64,000 bases of DNA from a virus (IMGVR_UViG_3300044608_002890), one strand, 5' to 3'; positions 1,670-12,200 are shown, counted from the stretch's first letter. Notes: generated from the letters alone by a model not told the origin. Numbers and translations: made by a program.

Positions 1670-2677
1670 ATGAAAAAATTACTTGCAATTTTACTTTTCC
1701 CTTTGTTTTCATTAGCTCATGCTGCTGAGATAACTGGTGCAGGTGCTACCTTTCCCTACCCCATCTATGCCAAATGGGCCGAAGCATATAACAAGGCCAC
1801 CGGCAATACCCTTAACTATCAGAGTATAGGTAGTTCAGGTGGCATTCGTCAAATCAATAATAAAACAGTTACTTTTGGTGCGTCAGATGCTCCAGTTAAA
1901 GGAGAGGATCTTGATAAACTTGGACAAGTTCAATTCCCTGCTATCATCGGTGGCACAGTGCCTGTTATCAATCTTGATGGCTTCAAGGCAGGTGAACTTC
2001 GCATCACAGGACCTGTACTTGCCGAAGTGTTCATGGGCAACATAACCAAATGGAACGATGATAAACTTGTTAAACTTAATCCTGGGAAATCCCTCCCCAA
2101 CACCAATATTACAGTGGTTCATAGAGCTGATGGATCTGGTACTACTTTTAATTGGACTGATTATCTCACTAGTGTTAGCCCAGAATGGGAGAAACGAGTT
2201 GGACGAGGAGCAGCAGTAAAATGGCCTGCTACCAGTTCAGTGGGTGGTAAAGGTAACGAAGGTGTTGCTGCCAATGTAAATAGAATTAAGGGTAGTATAG
2301 GCTACGTAGAATATGCTTATGTGAAAAAGAACCTAATGAACTACATGAAGCTACAGAACAAATCAGGTAACTTCGTCGACCCCGATGATGCGACATTTGC
2401 TGCAGCAGCGGCAGGTGCAGACTGGTTCAGCGTGCCAGGCATGGGGCTGAGCATCGTAAATCAGGGCGGCAAAGATACCTGGCCCGTTACTACAGCCAGT
2501 TTCATCATCATGTACAAGGAACCTGCAGACAAAAAAGCAAGCTCTGAAGTCATAAAGTTTTTTGATTGGGCATTCAAGAATGGTGCCAAGCTAAGTGTCG
2601 AACTAGACTATGTTCATTTACCAGATAAACTACAGGCTGACATTCGTAGTCGCGTCTGGAGTCAGATCAAAAATTAA
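1670..2677 (+). CDS. pstS: phosphate ABC transporter substrate-binding protein PstS
   Basis: Signal peptide, ITGAGATFPYPIYAKWAEAY, YQSIGSSGGI, RADGSGTT, GKGNEGVA, IGYVEYAY. Confidence 0.97.
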   Translation: MKKLLAILLFPLFSLAHAAEITGAGATFPYPIYAKWAEAYNKATGNTLNYQSIGSSGGIRQINNKTVTFGASDAPVKGEDLDKLGQVQFPAIIGGTVPVINLDGFKAGELRITGPVLAEVFMGNITKWNDDKLVKLNPGKSLPNTNITVVHRADGSGTTFNWTDYLTSVSPEWEKRVGRGAAVKWPATSSVGGKGNEGVAANVNRIKGSIGYVEYAYVKKNLMNYMKLQNKSGNFVDPDDATFAAAAAGADWFSVPGMGLSIVNQGGKDTWPVTTASFIIMYKEPADKKASSEVIKFFDWAFKNGAKLSVELDYVHLPDKLQADIRSRVWSQIKN

Positions 2678-3528: not shown

Positions 3529-3535
3529 AACAGTC

Positions 3536-3630
3536 GGTAGGTAGCACAGGTGTGCGGCGGGGTCTTATAAGCCCTGGAGACTGGTCAGATGGGCTGGAAC
3601 GGAAAGGTTCGATTCCTTTACCTACTACCA
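3536..3630 (+). tRNA. tRNA-Ile(UAU) with long variable arm
   Basis: GGTAGGT/ACCTACT acceptor + ACCA; GCAC/GTGC D-stem; GGGGT-CTTATAA-GCCCT anticodon arm; ~25-nt variable region; GGTTCGATTCC. Confidence 0.8.
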
Positions 3631-3804: not shown

Positions 3805-3880
3805 GCTTCCTAAGCTAATCTAGTGAAAGCGTCGGTCTGAAGAACCGAAGAGCCTGGAGCGAAACCAGGAGGGAGCACCA
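3805..3880 (+). tRNA. tRNA-Phe(GAA)
   Basis: TCGGT-CTGAAGA-ACCGA anticodon arm; atypical T-loop AGCGAAA; ACCA end. Confidence 0.85.
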
Positions 3881-4014
3881 TGTACACTCGCAGTCCGAAG
3901 GATAGTTTTTTGAGATTCATGCAAAATGCCTATGCCGATACCAATCTAACTCTAGCAGAGATTGTTGTGTTGGTCTTATGCGTAATTTTGGGGATATATT
4001 ATGTCTTTGTCTAA
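3880..4014 (+). CDS. possible small membrane peptide (44 aa)
   Basis: MYTRSPKDSFLRF...IVVLVLCVILGIYYVFV; one TM segment, overlaps the next start. Confidence 0.35.
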   Translation: MYTRSPKDSFLRFMQNAYADTNLTLAEIVVLVLCVILGIYYVFV

Positions 4015-4426
4015 AGAACCATTCTTCAGCATAACAGCTCGTGATTGTGAGTGGAGTTATACCCGGGGCACCGGTGCCGGTGGACAGAAGCGCAACAAGA
4101 CCAGTTCCGCTGTCCATTGCATTCACAAGGCATCCGGAGCCCACGGATATAGCGAAAGCAGCAGAAGTCAGCTTGACAATCGGAAAGATGCCTTTAAAAA
4201 GATGGCCGAGACCGATAAGTTTAAACGATGGATTCACATTGAATACATGAAGCGAACCGGAGAGTATTTAGAAGCCGAAAGACAGTTGGAAAAAAGCTTG
4301 ACAAAAGTTCGTCTAGAGGTTAAAATAGATGGACGATGGACAGAAGTGCGAGCCGACCAGCTTGTAGATGATCCAGATAATTTTGATTTTAGTTTCCTAG
4401 AGGAGAGTCCAGATGGGCAGCGATAA
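4001..4426 (+). CDS. peptide chain release factor-like peptidyl-tRNA hydrolase (RF-1 domain, ArfB/YaeJ-like)
   Basis: TRGTGAGGQKRNKTSSAVHCIH with GGQ motif; SRSQLDNRKDAF. Confidence 0.9.
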   Translation: MSLSKEPFFSITARDCEWSYTRGTGAGGQKRNKTSSAVHCIHKASGAHGYSESSRSQLDNRKDAFKKMAETDKFKRWIHIEYMKRTGEYLEAERQLEKSLTKVRLEVKIDGRWTEVRADQLVDDPDNFDFSFLEESPDGQR

Positions 4427-4441
4427 GGTACGAAAGATACT

Positions 4442-4516
4442 GCGGGTATGGCGAAATGGTATCGCATCAGGCTTTTAACCTGTAAGTTCGGGGTTCGAAT
4501 CCCTGTGCCCGCACCA
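4442..4516 (+). tRNA. tRNA-Lys(UUU)
   Basis: GCGGGTA/TGCCCGC acceptor, CAGG-CTTTTAA-CCTG, GGTTCGAATCC, ACCA. Confidence 0.92.
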
Positions 4517-4580
4517 TATTCAAGCACATTGCCGAACAGACAAATGGCGGCAAGCCGATGAGCAGTGTGTTTGAATATGT
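4513..4580 (+). ncRNA. stem-closed small RNA element, copy 0
   Basis: CATATTCAAGCACATTGC (4515-4532) pairs with GCAGTGTGTTTGAATATG (4562-4579); sits between tRNA-Lys and tRNA-Ala. Confidence 0.75.
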
Positions 4581-4582
4581 TA

Positions 4583-4657
4583 GGGCTGGTAGTGATAATG
4601 GGAGCACGGGGCCTTTGCACGGCTCAGGTAAGAGTTCGATTCTCTTTCGGTCCACCA
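4583..4657 (+). tRNA. tRNA-Ala(UGC)
   Basis: Loop TTTGCAC, G3:U70 pair in acceptor GGGCTGG/TCGGTCC, ACCA. Confidence 0.88.
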
Positions 4658-4660
4658 ATT

Positions 4661-4735
4661 AGGGGTGTAGTATAACGGTCAGTACAACGGGCTTTGAACT
4701 CGTGGGTCTAGGTTCGATTCCTGGCACCCCCGCCA
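4661..4735 (+). tRNA. tRNA-Gln(UUG)
   Basis: ACGGG-CTTTGAA-CTCGT, GGTTCGATTCC, GCCA end. Confidence 0.9.
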
Positions 4736-4747
4736 ATGGAGATAGAC

Positions 4748-4972
4748 ATGGTAAGAAAAACTAAGGTGGCTGAGAAGCCTGCAAAGAAAGAAGCAAAAGT
4801 TGCACCAGTCAAGAAGCCCAAACAGGCCAAGATCGAAGTTGATGCTGTAGAACAAGTTAAAGATGGCACTTATAAAGGTGAATATAGTACTTCTTCATAC
4901 AACAAAGGAGAACTAATTAGTTTTGATATTGATTGGGATCGATTGAAAGAACATTTACGGAAGGTTGGCTGA
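4748..4972 (+). CDS. Lys-rich hypothetical protein
   Basis: GGAG RBS; MVRKTKVAEKPAKK...IDWDRLKEHLRK; 3' end overlaps tRNA-Ser. Confidence 0.6.
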   Translation: MVRKTKVAEKPAKKEAKVAPVKKPKQAKIEVDAVEQVKDGTYKGEYSTSSYNKGELISFDIDWDRLKEHLRKVG

Positions 4973-5050
4973 GAGGCTCAAGGCAGCGGTTTGCTAAACC
5001 GTCGATTCAGGAAACTGGGTCCGTGGGTTCGAATCCCACACCTTCCACCA
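4959..5050 (+). tRNA. tRNA-Ser(GCU)
   Basis: GGAAGGT/ACCTTCC acceptor, CGGT-TTGCTAA-ACCG, long V-arm, ACCA. Confidence 0.92.
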
Positions 5051-5051
5051 G

Positions 5052-5126
5052 GCTGATGTAGATCAGTGGTAGATCGCTGACTTGGTAAGTCAGAGGCCGT
5101 GAGTTCAATCCTCGCCATCAGCACCA
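5052..5126 (+). tRNA. tRNA-Thr(GGU)
   Basis: GCTGATG/CATCAGC, CTGAC-TTGGTAA-GTCAG. Confidence 0.92.
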
Positions 5127-5132
5127 AAAGAG

Positions 5133-5639
5133 ATGAAAATGTTAGATCTACATGTATTTGACAATGTATTTGATGACAAAGTTTTAAATGCATATCTGAA
5201 ACGCATCACCGAACATTTTGCGGTACAGCAGCAGACCGGTGAAGTATTACAATGGCATCCGCATCGAAACATTAGATTGGATGTGCAAGATCCCATGGTA
5301 TTAGAAGTTAAAGAATTTTTGCAATCCAAACTAAGAATGCGTACCAGTTGTTATGATGTAGAACTACAGACCTGGCCCATAGGTTCCTACAGCGATTTGC
5401 ATTGTCATGACAAGACCAATTATGGACGTGCTGGTCTAGGAGACTATAACAGTTTACTGTATTTGAACGATGATTTTGAAGGTGGTGAATTTTTTACGGA
5501 GCACGGCATTACCATTGTACCAAAAAAGAATAGACTCACATTTTTTGATGGGTATAGAATAGCGCACGGTCTTAGGACTGTAGAAAAACGCAACAGGCAT
5601 ACATTGATTTTTTGGTGGTCAAACACCATGTGGTTGTAG
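5133..5639 (+). CDS. 2OG-Fe(II) oxygenase (prolyl 4-hydroxylase-like)
   Basis: HxD (LHCHD), SLLYLNDDFEGGEF, PKKNRLTFF, distal H and R (HGLRTV...RHTL). Confidence 0.88.
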   Translation: MKMLDLHVFDNVFDDKVLNAYLKRITEHFAVQQQTGEVLQWHPHRNIRLDVQDPMVLEVKEFLQSKLRMRTSCYDVELQTWPIGSYSDLHCHDKTNYGRAGLGDYNSLLYLNDDFEGGEFFTEHGITIVPKKNRLTFFDGYRIAHGLRTVEKRNRHTLIFWWSNTMWL

Positions 5640-5827
5640 TATCCCCGGACCTATGCCGGTTATCAGAGGCGCGACAAGACCAGCGTTAGGAGTCTTAGGT
5701 TTCTTTTTTCCTCCCTCTGGGCCATTCATCCAGCAGGGTAAAACAAAAGATAGGACGTGTCATCCGATACACAAGACACTGGACAGGGCAATACCTCATG
5801 TCGGGGCTCTTGGGAAAGAGTAGCCGA

Positions 5828-5933
5828 TACCATATTGAAGCACACTTGAAGACCCGTCAAGGACCAACGCTACGATGCATAGACATATAAGCCGGGGCGA
5901 AAAAGTTTGGTATTAGTGTGTTTCAATATGGTA
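5828..5933 (+). ncRNA. stem-closed small RNA element, copy 1
   Basis: TACCATATTGAAGCACACT / AGTGTGTTTCAATATGGTA, 19-bp stem, 68-nt cargo. Confidence 0.75.
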
Positions 5934-6052
5934 GCAATACCATAACACGTGGCCATCAGCGTGTATAAAGGCGGCGAGTCTTAAACGAAGTCGGTGACGG
6001 GATAGGTAGAACAGTTACTCCGAAAATGTAACGCCGGATTTTGTAACCGGCA

Positions 6053-6154
6053 ACCATATTGAAGCACATTCCTGCCGTATTGGTCTACGGTTCGAAAAGC
6101 GATAGGACCTAGAGTAACCGCCTAGGGAGTTTGAAGAGTGTGTTTCAATATGGT
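6053..6154 (+). ncRNA. stem-closed small RNA element, copy 2
   Basis: ACCATATTGAAGCACATTC / GAGTGTGTTTCAATATGGT, 19-bp stem, 64-nt cargo. Confidence 0.75.
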
Positions 6155-6345
6155 GAGTAGGAAGTAACCGTGAGCCGACTTGGTGAGGTTGCAGACTAAA
6201 GATCAACTTCGACCGCGTAGATAGTCCGGACTATCGTTTGAAACGGAAGATGCATCCATCCCCTGCCCTACTGATCATAAGTCCGATGTGAAATGAAGGT
6301 CAAAGTTTTTCGAGACTCAATTGGCAGTGATTTTCATCTTAGGAC

Positions 6346-6486
6346 ACCATATTGAAGCGCATTTCAAAATCCCGAAACTTTCTAGCACGGGTCGACACAA
6401 CCTAGAAAGCAACCGAAAAAAGGGTAAGATTGCAAGAGTGGGATACTCGGCGGTGAGAATCCGCAGGAAGTGTGTTTCAATATGGT
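6346..6486 (+). ncRNA. stem-closed small RNA element, copy 3
   Basis: ACCATATTGAAGCGCATTTC / GAAGTGTGTTTCAATATGGT, 20-bp stem, 101-nt cargo. Confidence 0.75.
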
Positions 6487-6675
6487 AGATTAAAAATTAG
6501 TCCCGCCACACCTGTTGCTCAAATCCCTAGAGTTAGCGGTGCTCCCAGGGCGAGGCGGGTGCAAGCCCCGTCAACTAAAATACACTTGCAATTGGCGCTG
6601 CAAGGTACGGATGTCTAGCCTGAGGACTGTCGTCCAAGACACAGAAGACAATATGAAACCAGTTTAGGGACTGGT

Positions 6676-6741
6676 GCCATATTGAAGCACATTGCTGCGA
6701 ACAGGTTGATCGCTGTATCTGGTAGTGTGTTTCAATATGGT
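6676..6741 (+). ncRNA. stem-closed small RNA element, copy 4
   Basis: GCCATATTGAAGCACATTGCT / GGTAGTGTGTTTCAATATGGT, 21-bp stem, 24-nt cargo; 3' end overlaps tRNA 5' end at 6739. Confidence 0.75.
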
Positions 6742-6814
6742 AATGTAGCATAGCGGCTAATGCAGCACCTTCATACGGTGCCTATCGTCAGTTCGAGTCT
6801 GACCATTACTACCA
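6739..6814 (+). tRNA. tRNA CAT (elongator Met, or Ile2)
   Basis: GGTAATG/CATTACT, GCACC-TTCATAC-GGTGC, ACCA. Confidence 0.85.
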
Positions 6815-6819
6815 GTTAT

Positions 6820-6911
6820 GGAGGGTTAACCGAGCTGGGCTCGGCACTGTCTTGAAAACAGAGGGATTGGCGATGAGCCGGTTGGAGTTCGATTCTACCA
6901 GCCCTCCTCCA
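6820..6911 (+). tRNA. tRNA-Ser(UGA)
   Basis: GGAGGGT/GCCCTCC, CTGT-CTTGAAA-ACAG, long V-arm. Confidence 0.88.
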
Positions 6912-7462: not shown

Positions 7463-7551
7463 GGGACCTGCCCCTATCAGCGGACTGTAAATCCGTCGTC
7501 AGAAAACCGATAGGAAGTAGACAAGTGGAGCGTTACCACCAGGGCCCACCA
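7463..7551 (+). tRNA. atypical tRNA-Tyr(GUA) lacking a D-stem
   Basis: GGGACCT/AGGGCCC acceptor, GCGGA-CTGTAAA-TCCGT, T-arm GTGG-AGCGTTA-CCAC, ACCA; only ~10 nt in the D region. Confidence 0.7.
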
Positions 7552-8670: not shown

Positions 8671-8745
8671 TGGGAATTAGCTCAGCGGTAGAGCAACGCC
8701 CTTACAAGGCGAAGGTCCACAGTTCGATCCTGTGATTCCCAACCA
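8671..8745 (+). tRNA. tRNA-Val(UAC)
   Basis: TGGGAAT/ATTCCCA, CGCC-CTTACAA-GGCG. Confidence 0.92.
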
Positions 8746-8767
8746 AATGATGAAAGAGGAGATCATC

Positions 8768-9322
8768 ATGCCAGTGCTTGCCCTAGATGTTTCAGGTACA
8801 CCACGACAGTGGATCAGCAACGAAGATGCCATTAGCTATCAGGCCACCGACAGCGTAGCCTGGAGCATGGGCGATGTCGTTGTTCGCTACAGAGGTGGTA
8901 CTCAAAGGACCGGCACCAAAAGCTATCTAGAGTGTGCAAGCATCATAGCCATCAAGGGGCATGGGTTCAATCCACACAAGCATGCCAAGGTAGCTTTGAG
9001 CAATCGAACCTTATTTGGTCGTGACCGAATGATGTGCGCATACTGTGGTACGCAGCATGCCAGTGCCGGCAAATTAAGCCGTGACCACATTGTGCCACGC
9101 AGCCGTGGCGGCTCCGATGCCTGGATGAATGTTGTAACGGCTTGTCGTAGTTGCAACAGCAAAAAAGACAACTTGACCCTCAAAGAAAGTGGCATGGAGT
9201 TGCTGTACGTACCCTATGTGCCTAACCATTTTGAGAACATGATACTTCAGAATAGAAATATTCTTACCGATCAAATGGATTACCTGATGTCTGGTGTACC
9301 CAGACACAGTAGACTGCTTTAG
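8768..9322 (+). CDS. HNH endonuclease family protein
   Basis: CAYCG, SRDHIVPRSRGG, WMNVVTACRSCNSKK; N-terminus LALDVSGTPRQWIS like betaproteobacterial HNH proteins. Confidence 0.9.
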   Translation: MPVLALDVSGTPRQWISNEDAISYQATDSVAWSMGDVVVRYRGGTQRTGTKSYLECASIIAIKGHGFNPHKHAKVALSNRTLFGRDRMMCAYCGTQHASAGKLSRDHIVPRSRGGSDAWMNVVTACRSCNSKKDNLTLKESGMELLYVPYVPNHFENMILQNRNILTDQMDYLMSGVPRHSRLL

Positions 9323-10956: not shown

Positions 10957-10968
10957 TAAATATATTTA
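10957..10968. promoter_or_regulatory. palindromic back-to-back late promoters TAAATATATTTA
   Basis: Perfect 12-bp palindrome giving TAAATA on both strands between divergent genes. Confidence 0.5.
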
Positions 10969-12200
10969 TGGAAACCAAATTAGCAACCATAGTTTGTAGC
11001 GATGTCATTGGCTACAGTAGTTTGATGCAGGCCGACGAAGAAGGCACGCTTCGTCGCCTGGATGCCTGTCGTGCCATCATAGATGGTTTAATTAGCGAAC
11101 ACAAGGGCAGATTGTTTAATACTGGCGGCGACAGCATCTTAGTGGAGTTTGCCAGCTCCGTAGACGCCGTGCGGTTCAGCATAGCCATGCAAGAACACAT
11201 GCGCAAACTCAACAATGGCATGCGTTGGCGCATAGGCATGCACATGGGTGAGGTATGGATCTATGGAACCAATCTCATGGGCGACGCAGTCAACCTAGCA
11301 GCTCGCACCGAAAGTCTAGCCGACTATGGTGGGGTGACCATGACCAGCGAAGTTCATAAACTGGTAGCTTCCAAGATAAAAGATCAGAAATTCATCAGCC
11401 GTGGCATGCAGGAATTCAAGAATGTTGCTCCCATGGAAATCTGGAGCATTGACATACCGGGTGCAGAACCCAATCCACATCTAGCCAAAGCAACAAAACG
11501 TCCCGAAGTAACTTCAACCAAGAGTCATGCTGAATTGATAGCCGCAGTTGTCAACGATCAAGCAGCACGAAACCGAAATATCAACGATGCTCTTGCATTC
11601 AAACAAGATGGCAAGATGGGTCCAGCTACTCGCATACTCATGTGGCGTGTGAGTAAACGAGACATGCAGGCCCTGGATGAACTCATAAGCATGAGTCAAA
11701 AAAATCTAGTACCCACAGAACTCAAGCCCTATGTGTATGCAGTATTCAAAGAATTTTGCAACAAAATAACCAGTGATCTGGCTCTTAAGATTGTAGACAT
11801 TGTAGAGAATGATAGTCGCAGTCTTGCCATGCAGTTTCTCAAACAAGCTGCCAAGGTCAATGAACAGGCCAGCTATAAACTAGCCATGATGGTTTTCACA
11901 GATCCGCATAGCAGTTCTACCGAAATCGATGGCGTCATAGGTGACTTAAAAGAAAGCGCCATGAAGCGCCGAGTACCGGCCATGATGAGTTTGGGCAAGT
12001 ACTACATGCAGATTGGTGACAAGAAAAATGCTTTTAGATGGCTCTATGCTGCTCGTGCCGAGCACGATAAAGAAGCACAGAATTTGCTGGAATCATTGAA
12101 CAAGACCATTAGCAAAAGCGATTTCAATAACTACAAGACCGATGGTGATGCATTGGTGGATGAAATTAAATTCATTGATGAAAATAGGATGCGACAATGA
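10968..12200 (+). CDS. class III nucleotidyl cyclase domain fused to a Sel1/TPR-like helical region
   Basis: IVCSDVIGYS, NTGGDSILVEF, WRIGMHMGEV, GDAVNLAARTES; C-terminal AMMSLGKYY...KNAFRWLYAA. Confidence 0.85.
   Translation: METKLATIVCSDVIGYSSLMQADEEGTLRRLDACRAIIDGLISEHKGRLFNTGGDSILVEFASSVDAVRFSIAMQEHMRKLNNGMRWRIGMHMGEVWIYGTNLMGDAVNLAARTESLADYGGVTMTSEVHKLVASKIKDQKFISRGMQEFKNVAPMEIWSIDIPGAEPNPHLAKATKRPEVTSTKSHAELIAAVVNDQAARNRNINDALAFKQDGKMGPATRILMWRVSKRDMQALDELISMSQKNLVPTELKPYVYAVFKEFCNKITSDLALKIVDIVENDSRSLAMQFLKQAAKVNEQASYKLAMMVFTDPHSSSTEIDGVIGDLKESAMKRRVPAMMSLGKYYMQIGDKKNAFRWLYAARAEHDKEAQNLLESLNKTISKSDFNNYKTDGDALVDEIKFIDENRMRQ

What the first reader, a model, noticed from the sequence alone, without database searches (positions are those of the whole stretch)
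4513..6741. Family of five small RNAs in the tRNA operon: constant closing stem, variable cargo
Seen: five copies (4513-4580, 5828-5933, 6053-6154, 6346-6486, 6676-6741) of the left arm (A)CCATATTGAAGCACA(T/C)T and right arm AGTGTGTTTCAATATG(GT). They form 18-21 bp stems around unrelated cargos of 29, 68, 64, 101 and 24 nt. Evidence for selection on RNA: copy 0 has a compensatory swap (TTCAA/TTGAA vs TTGAA/TTCAA); one G.U wobble recurs at the same position in all five copies and a U.G in four; copy 3's A>G change becomes another G.U. The units abut tRNAs: copy 0 begins in the ACCA of tRNA-Lys and copy 4 overlaps the first 3 nt of tRNA-CAT, so tRNA maturation would release them. The two shortest cargos share CGAACAG. 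I do not recognise this as a named RNA family. Inference: a cassette system in which a constant stem is a protein-binding or RNase III handle carrying interchangeable RNA domains (decoys, guides or antitoxin-like RNAs).
Basis: partly seen in the sequence, partly recalled or inferred. Interest (0 to 1): 0.9.

Follow-up and report, generated by a model that had tools for sequence, protein, structure and literature searches.

The report
RNase III-released phage small-RNA cassettes
Between its tRNA genes this lake phage carries five copies of one RNA stem, shaped like a cutting site for the host enzyme RNase III, that would release about eight different small folded RNAs; related phages use the same stem for hundreds of swappable RNAs whose jobs, possibly as decoys against host defences, are still unknown.

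Summary
The five stems belong to a phage-only family: 645 units in 316 loci, none in reversed controls, none in GTDB genomes, no Rfam hit. The stem starts on a tRNA's CCA in 269 of 284 cases with a tRNA nearby. It looks like an RNase III site. A profile built only from these stems ranks T7 sites R1.1 and R18.5 first and third in the T7 genome. The predicted cuts fall in the same register as the annotated ends of T5 RNAIII. A related stem closes the excised segment of phage two-piece tmRNAs; one carries a cassette cargo. Cargos (262 families) move between tRNAs, and 20 carry a tRNA T-arm (0.2 expected). The array lies in RNA-library contigs of four studies. Cutting is inferred, not shown. Cargo function is unproven; a decoy role is most likely. 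rRNA mimicry, inversion and guide roles were not supported. The closest precedent is T5's stable RNAs of unknown function. This scan noted the family before (72 notes, 70+ genomes); I found no paper on it.

The parts
4298..4326 (+). sigma-70-type promoter (11/12 consensus); the last strong + strand promoter before the array (a weak 9/12 match lies at 4571-4599)
   Evidence: no + strand terminator-like site found between 3000 and 10000
4442..4516 (+). tRNA-Lys(UUU); its ACCA is the start of cassette 0's left arm
4513..4580 (+). cassette 0. Predicted RNase III cuts at 4520/4521 and 4575/4576, giving a 55-nt product. Cargo family of 18 members with an invariant internal loop and a variable hairpin
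   Evidence: cut sites inferred
5640..5832 (+). linker RNA B0; homologues in 19 loci down to 72% identity; 10 of 44 predicted pairs compensatory
   Evidence: covered in RNA-library contigs
5828..5933 (+). cassette 1; predicted product 5837-5926 (90 nt). Same cargo in 5 other loci, behind tRNA-Ile(GAU) in L034 and L046. Absent, with B0 joined directly to B1, in L046, L050, L114, L160
5931..6056 (+). linker RNA B1 (predicted product 5927-6060); homologues in 22 loci; very conserved, little covariation (3 of 30 pairs)
6053..6154 (+). cassette 2; predicted product 6061-6148 (88 nt); cargo in 7 other loci
6153..6349 (+). linker B2 (predicted product 6149-6353); a 126-nt 5' module found in 16 loci plus a 3' module of about 70 nt found in 4-5; not tested for covariation
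6346..6486 (+). cassette 3; predicted product 6354-6480 (127 nt); one homologue (L292, 94%), and present in RNA contigs of all four runs
6485..6679 (+). linker RNA B3 (predicted product 6481-6683); 28 loci down to 72% identity; 16 of 39 pairs compensatory
6676..6741 (+). cassette 4; predicted product 6684-6735 (52 nt); homologue in L016 with a two-sided stem change
6739..6814 (+). tRNA(CAT); its first three nucleotides end cassette 4's right arm; the predicted cut leaves a 3-nt leader

Best explanation
The array is a polycistronic small-RNA operon punctuated by a standard RNase III site. Step 1 (inferred from promoter, strand and RNA contigs): host RNA polymerase transcribes the tRNA cluster as one long RNA. 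Step 2 (shown by covariation): each pair of arms folds into a 17-21 bp helix whose foot pairs the upstream NCCA with the first bases of the next RNA. Step 3 (inferred, about 0.8): host RNase III cuts 4 nt after the CCA on the left arm and 3 nt before the last G of the right arm, leaving 2-nt 3' overhangs. This frees the upstream tRNA with a 4-nt trailer for trimming and the downstream tRNA with a short leader for RNase P. It also releases the cargo, protected by an 11-bp terminal helix, and the linkers, which can close on the outer half-stem. Step 4 (shown): homologous arms let phages gain, lose and reorder modules. Step 5 (inferred, about 0.45): the released RNAs act by shape, as decoys or sponges for host RNA-binding proteins, most plausibly tRNA-cutting or tRNA-sensing defence proteins. 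In the T-arm-bearing families the retained half-stem stands in for an acceptor stem and gives a tRNA-shaped molecule without CCA. The likely host is a freshwater Comamonadaceae bacterium.
For: Covariation: at the outermost pair (index 16), which neither my filter nor the search patterns constrained, mutual information is 0.69 against a shuffle maximum of 0.08; G.U 78 vs A.C 11 on the tRNA strand outside three special positions. Position: 269 of 284 units with a tRNA end nearby share its CCA exactly, and in 83 the last G is the next tRNA's nt 1. T7 test: the phage-only pair profile ranks R1.1 1st, R18.5 3rd, R0.5 15th, R1.3 16th and R6.5 25th of 1960 T7 peaks; the cut lies 3 nt after the aligned arm in six sites; column-permutation p about 0.02. 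In that register proximal-box position 2 is A-U in 261 of 262 families and the distal box has U.G in 208, both E. coli RNase III requirements (PMC1540722). The only mismatch-tolerant pair (A.C in 39) lies next to the predicted cut. T5 RNAIII: CCA, then 4 nt, then the annotated 5' end; 2-nt 3' overhang; next tRNA follows; same register. The excised segments of phage two-piece tmRNAs use the inner half-stem (27-31 bits in L071, L263), and L071's carries a cargo 91-98% identical to six cassettes. No RNase III gene in five related phage records, four of them at least 90% complete, so the enzyme would be the host's. Cargos: 262 families, 55 of 70 larger families in more than one upstream context, only 1 of 179 multi-unit loci repeats a family, T-arm in 20 families vs 0.2 expected, 14 of them within 7 nt of the right arm. 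RNA-library contigs of four studies cover 5665-6760. tRNA regions of T5-like phages counter tRNA-cutting defences (PMC11555353). PstS is 69-78% identical to Comamonadaceae proteins.
Against: No cut or RNA end was observed; only contigs were available. The pair next to the predicted left-arm cut is G-C in 181 of 262 families, and G-C there lowers E. coli RNase III cleavage 14-fold without lowering binding. The two central pairs are U-A, whereas in-vivo E. coli sites favour G-C there (PMC6212723). The helix is under 22 bp on the tRNA side. The profile did not pick out the known rRNA processing sites. None of this window's cargos has a canonical T-arm, cargo-only folding is only slightly better than shuffles (median z -0.4), and no target is identified for any cargo. 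Five of the T7 cut coordinates came from memory.
Confidence: 0.55

Rival explanations
1. The stems are only punctuation that speeds tRNA maturation; cargos and linkers are leftovers (decayed tRNAs, spacers) without a job.
For: The stem sits exactly on tRNA ends. T-arms could be relics of dead tRNAs. Cargo-only folding is weak overall. High identity of C1, C2 and B1 could reflect recent exchange.
Against: Cargos are not shrunk to minimal loops (median 51 nt). The copy-0 family keeps an invariant unpaired loop around a freely varying hairpin. B3 and B0 show many compensatory changes at 72% identity. Four stems in a row (5828-6741) separate no tRNAs from each other. Families are almost never repeated in a genome.
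Confidence: 0.15
2. The stem is bound but not, or only slowly, cut. It is a handle for RNase III or for a phage or host protein, so the array titrates RNase III or displays cargos on a protein, as Y RNAs do on Ro60.
For: G-C at the catalytic antideterminant position in 69% of families. Sequence invariance is far above what E. coli RNase III substrates show.
Against: An uncut stem would bury the tRNA's CCA and leave two-piece tmRNA unprocessed. The lower box set that governs the right-arm cut is permissive. T5's equivalent RNA is annotated with staggered ends. No phage RNase III was found; Ro60 was not searched for.
Confidence: 0.15
3. The released RNAs are base-pairing regulators (sRNA, microRNA-like or guide RNAs) aimed at host or phage messages.
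For: Release from a hairpin by an RNase III enzyme resembles Dicer and tracrRNA processing; some cargos have invariant single-stranded loops.
Against: No long antisense match inside the window. No excess antisense match to rRNA. Lengths vary from about 20 to 180 nt, and the same cargos recur across phages, unlike spacers. The host genome is unknown, so host mRNA targets were not tested.
Confidence: 0.1
4. A DNA-level element: a miniature transposon inserting at tRNA 3' ends, or an invertible cassette.
For: Inverted repeats, and clean gain or loss at an NCCA with a short direct repeat.
Against: G.U is favoured over A.C on one strand. No cargo pair occurs in opposite orientation. Units occur on the tRNA strand, interiors are unrelated, and there are no copies elsewhere in the window or in GTDB genomes.
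Confidence: 0.03

Closest known systems
Phage T5 stable RNAs RNAIII, RNA2H, RNAIV (and RNAI, RNA1, RNA2), GenBank AY543070, 'stable RNA with unknown functions'
   Same: Located in the tRNA region. RNAIII is closed by a stalk whose foot pairs the upstream RNA's CCA with the start of tRNA-His; its annotated ends give a 2-nt 3' overhang, 4 nt after the CCA, as predicted here. Neighbouring RNAs end in CCA or are tRNA-like. Function unknown.
   Different: T5's three stalks differ in sequence from each other and score at most 3.6 bits with this family's full model, against 57-61 here. No cargo homology was shown. Here one near-invariant stem is reused up to 10 times per locus for hundreds of exchangeable cargo families. 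I could not check whether T5's annotated ends were mapped experimentally.
T7 RNase III sites R0.5, R1.1, R1.3, R6.5, R18.5
   Same: The upper-stem pattern matches the inner half-stem, in a fixed register to the cut.
   Different: T7 sites have short loops and an internal loop giving one cut between mRNAs. These stems are fully paired, enclose RNAs of about 20-180 nt and sit on tRNA ends.
Intervening segment of two-piece (permuted) tmRNA, Rfam RF04321/RF01850
   Same: CCA, then an excised stem-closed segment, then the 5' G of the next piece. In related phages it uses the inner half-stem and can hold a cassette cargo.
   Different: There the flanking pieces pair into one RNA. Here the flanking linkers occur without each other and their pairing is not significant. 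This window has no tmRNA.
Bacterial Y RNAs (YrlA/YrlB) with Ro60; GOLLD and ROOL RNAs of phage tRNA arrays
   Same: A constant terminal stem with a variable, sometimes tRNA-like, effector part (Y RNA, from my own knowledge). GOLLD lies in the same kind of array (L117).
   Different: No Rfam match at gathering score (YrlA only 17 bits, on a tRNA). The stem is unbroken, without the bulged Ro-binding helix. The array is several small modules, not one large ornate RNA.

Membership tests
RNase III substrate (E. coli rules) | At least 11 bp of helix on one side of the cut | tested here: met
   Indices 6-16 are paired, mostly in 90% or more of families (index 6 and 16 about 80%) (rule)
RNase III substrate (E. 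coli rules) | A-U or U-A at proximal-box position 2, and U-A/U.G distal box | tested here: met
   A-U in 261 of 262; U.G in 208 and U-A in 242 of 262, in the T7-derived register
RNase III substrate (E. coli rules) | No G-C at the pair next to the scissile bond; G-C preferred between the two cuts | tested here: not met
   G-C in 181 of 262 next to the left cut; U-A between the cuts. This slows cleavage rather than abolishing it, and the host enzyme is not E. coli's
RNase III substrate (E. coli rules) | RNase III-dependent ends with 2-nt 3' overhang | not testable with these tools
   Only assembled contigs were available
T5-type stalk-closed stable RNA | In a phage tRNA cluster, stalk foot pairing the upstream CCA with the next tRNA's start | tested here: met
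T5-type stalk-closed stable RNA | Sequence homology to RNAIII, RNA2H or RNAIV | tested here: not met
   No blastn match in 50,697 phage records; stem model at most 3.6 bits on the T5 RNAs
T5-type stalk-closed stable RNA | Accumulates as a stable RNA in infection | tested here: inconclusive
   Array present in RNA-library contigs of four studies, but contigs give no level or ends
Any Rfam family (GOLLD, ROOL, YrlA, tmRNA, ribozymes) | Covariance-model hit at gathering score | tested here: not met
   Window. Fifteen cassette-rich related loci: only tRNA, GOLLD, tmRNA and a group I intron
Y RNA / Ro60 system | Ro60 (TROVE) gene in the phage or host | not tested
   None among 20 window proteins scanned; whole genome not held
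CRISPR-like or RNA anti-CRISPR array | Direct repeats with uniform, non-conserved spacers | tested here: not met
   Arms are inverted, inserts are about 20-180 nt, and the same inserts recur across phages
MITE or invertible element | Strand-symmetric inverted repeats, either orientation, dispersed copies | tested here: not met

The most novel reading that the evidence does not exclude
Large freshwater phages keep a shared library of several hundred distinct RNA effectors (262 cargo families seen, Chao1 estimate about 520, plus about 60 linker families). Each plugs into a standard RNase III release socket and is swapped by recombination between the sockets. The RNAs act as aptamer-like inhibitors or tRNA-shaped decoys of host defence and RNA-binding proteins: an RNA counterpart of anti-defence protein islands.
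Probability: 0.35. Interest if true: 0.88.

Novelty: new variant of a known kind. Interest (0 to 1): 0.62.

Why it matters
T5's stable RNAs are annotated only as 'stable RNA with unknown functions', and I found no paper giving them a role. This family turns that single case into hundreds of comparable natural variants with a predictable release site, so processing and function can be tested in E. coli by cloning one cassette. If the cargos are decoys, they are a large untapped set of RNA inhibitors of bacterial immunity and a new side of the tRNA-centred arms race. The stem would also be a compact natural device for expressing several stable small RNAs from one transcript.

Tried and rejected
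rRNA mimicry. Several modules looked like 16S/23S pieces (copy 0 like h15, B2 like h21, B3 like 23S 325-357; single p values 0.03-0.15). Shared 9-12-mers with eight species' rRNA equalled shuffles and reversed sequences, and profile alignments had no heavier tail than reversed sequences, whose best hits looked just as convincing. Rejected as a general rule.

Split RNA across cassette 2 (B1 pairing with B2): p about 0.12, and each occurs without the other.

Linker CCA as an aminoacylation end: GCA, UCA, CUA and UUA are common before stems that follow no tRNA (263 of 376 are CCA), so there the CCA is mainly stem.

RNA ends from public runs: contigs in two riverine runs start at 5925, 2 nt from the predicted cut, but that is also where the most variable stem base would branch an assembly; not counted. 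Missing cover on the ORFs is not evidence either.

rRNA processing stalks scored with the stem profile: uninformative.

Phage RNase III: none. Stem in GTDB genomes: none with one pattern. Cultured phages: no match.

Literature: nothing describing the family. The supplement of the 10,006-candidate viral RNA catalogue (PMC10690425) was not held, so single cargos may be listed there unnamed. The original T5 paper was not held.

Full report
Setting. The window is part of a large T4-like phage genome: family B polymerase, UvsX, helicase and ribonucleotide reductase, with the helicase 59-65% identical to Methylophilales phage Melnitz and cyanomyoviruses. It has 24 tRNAs by ARAGORN, all on the + strand. 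Its PstS is 69-78% identical to Acidovorax, Hydrogenophaga, Limnohabitans and Polaromonas proteins, and a relative carries a betaproteobacterial-type tmRNA, so a freshwater Comamonadaceae host is likely (inference). No whole genome is held.

Observation. All five stems, their spacing, wobble pairs, the swap in copy 0 and the tRNA overlaps are as described. Folding z-scores are -4.4 to -6.7. A stem model finds exactly five copies in the window. Rfam has nothing here but tRNAs.

The family. GTDB genomes gave none, and cultured phages gave no match. In 269 of 284 units with a tRNA end nearby, the tRNA's CCA is the start of the left arm; in 83 units the last G of the right arm is the next tRNA's first base. 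tRNA-Lys(UUU) (45%), Glu(UUC) (27%) and Leu(UAG) (21%) are most often followed by a stem; this may be descent. My unit finder required pairing at indices 0-13, so the fair evidence is outside that range. Index 16 covaries strongly (MI 0.69, shuffle maximum 0.08) and index -1 also (0.19 vs 0.05). G.U outnumbers A.C 78 to 11 on the tRNA strand outside indices 6, 9 and 14. The stem is therefore selected as RNA.

What the stem is. The inner half resembles the upper stem of T7 R1.1. I recalled that sequence and confirmed it in T7 records. A pair profile built only from the phage stems was run over the whole T7 genome. It ranked R1.1 first, R18.5 third, R0.5 15th, R1.3 16th and R6.5 25th of 1960 peaks, with the cut 3 nt past the aligned arm in six sites. 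Permuting the columns reached this in about 2% of trials. Cuts for R0.3, R0.5, R1 and R1.1 and the R1.3 stem are from the DQ100054 annotation; the other coordinates are from memory. This register puts the left cut 4 nt after the CCA and the right cut 3 nt before the final G. In it, the most invariant pair (A-U, 261 of 262) is proximal-box position 2 and the conserved U.G is the distal-box pair that E. coli RNase III needs (PMC1540722). Against this, the pair beside the left cut is usually G-C, which slows cleavage 14-fold in E. coli, and the central pairs are U-A rather than the G-C favoured in vivo (PMC6212723).

Two further comparisons agree with the register or with excision. T5 RNAIII has the same layout, and its annotated ends fall in exactly this register with a 2-nt overhang; this lead came from earlier scan notes and I checked it. 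The segment that must be cut out of two-piece tmRNA uses the inner half-stem in related phages (27-31 bits in L071 and L263; L016 by eye), and L071's holds a cargo 91-98% identical to six inter-tRNA cassettes. Five related phage records encode no RNase III. Cleavage itself was not observed.

The cargos. There are 262 families (149 singletons, Chao1 about 520, median 51 nt). Of 70 families with three or more members, 55 occur in more than one upstream context, and only 1 of 179 multi-unit loci repeats a family. All five window cargos have homologues elsewhere. The copy-0 family keeps an invariant unpaired loop around a variable hairpin. The one strong shared motif is the tRNA T-arm: 20 families against 0.2 expected, 14 within 7 nt of the right arm. 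Several of these fold as cloverleaves with the half-stem in the acceptor position. None of this window's cargos has a canonical T-arm.

The linkers. The segments 5640-5832, 5931-6056, 6153-6349 and 6485-6679 are modules too, found in 16-28 loci each and in different orders. B3 has 16 of 39 pairs compensatory and B0 10 of 44; B1 is nearly invariant. No open frame in 5640-6741 exceeds 63 codons. Cassette 1 is cleanly absent in four relatives, and RNA contigs show further rearranged joins, consistent with recombination between arms.

Expression. RNA-library contigs from four studies cover 5665-6760, with summed word depth up to 2209 at B0 and 297 at B1. These come from relatives, may include DNA, and give no ends or levels, so this is supporting only.

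Mechanism and odds. Shown: RNA helix, placement on CCA, modular exchange, structured linkers B0 and B3. Inferred: RNase III release (about 0.8) and a decoy function (about 0.45). The decoy reading rests on the T-arm subset, the diversity and non-redundancy of cargos, and the known counter-defence role of tRNA regions in T5-like phages (PMC11555353). Rivals are plain punctuation (0.15), an uncut protein handle (0.15), base-pairing regulators (0.10) and a DNA element (0.03). rRNA mimicry looked attractive but failed reversed-sequence controls.

Verdict. It works like an RNase III processing stalk and like T5's stalk-closed stable RNAs, but is not homologous to them and matches no Rfam family. 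What is new is one standard stem serving a large exchangeable RNA library. I found no paper describing it; this scan has noted it in at least 70 other genomes. New variant of a known kind; interest 0.62.

Noticed in passing
L016, L071, L263, L170, L047, L056, L292 (tmRNA genes): Related phages carry two-piece tmRNAs whose intervening segment starts 1-2 nt after the CCA with a stem like the cassette's inner half. In L047, L056 and L292 the segment is 118-232 nt and seems to begin with a ribosome-binding site and a small ORF.
   Followed up: partly
window 4001-4426: Stand-alone RF-1-domain (GGQ) peptidyl-tRNA hydrolase gene just before tRNA-Lys; possibly ribosome rescue.
   Followed up: no
window 6820-6907, 7463-7551, 3805-3877: tRNAs missed by ARAGORN: a Ser-type tRNA (Rfam tRNA-Sec model, 44 bits), an unusual Tyr-type tRNA with a very short D region (also noted in e1-5833978), and a Phe-type tRNA found by Rfam only.
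   Followed up: no
window 3532-3630: tRNA-Ile(UAU) with a long variable arm; the same type recurs in 66 places among related loci.
   Followed up: no
L009, L003, L016 and others, upstream of tRNA arrays: A recurring leader-like motif (GGACC...AAACGGGCGG around a hairpin) precedes many arrays in relatives; in L016 a boxA-like element lies just before the tRNA; possible antitermination signals.
   Followed up: no
L117 9154-9615 (-); L051 13185-13378 (-): A GOLLD RNA and a group I intron lie in the same tRNA arrays as the cassettes.
   Followed up: no
window 6555-6577 (B3): An invariant hairpin in B3 resembles 23S rRNA 325-345, the L24/L4 region; not significant on its own after controls, but conserved on both sides.
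   Followed up: partly
window 6700-6712; families in L011 and L163: The same short loop motif (UUGAUCRC) recurs in three different cargo families, suggesting that cargos share sub-modules.
   Followed up: partly
L318 7809-7980 (T5 RNA2H) and the L016 tmRNA segment: By eye these share a 14-nt exact word; not tested for significance.
   Followed up: no
window 1670-2677, 5133-5639, 8732-9322, 10968-12200: PstS, a 2OG-Fe(II) oxygenase inside the tRNA operon, an HNH endonuclease, and a nucleotide-cyclase-domain protein.
   Followed up: partly
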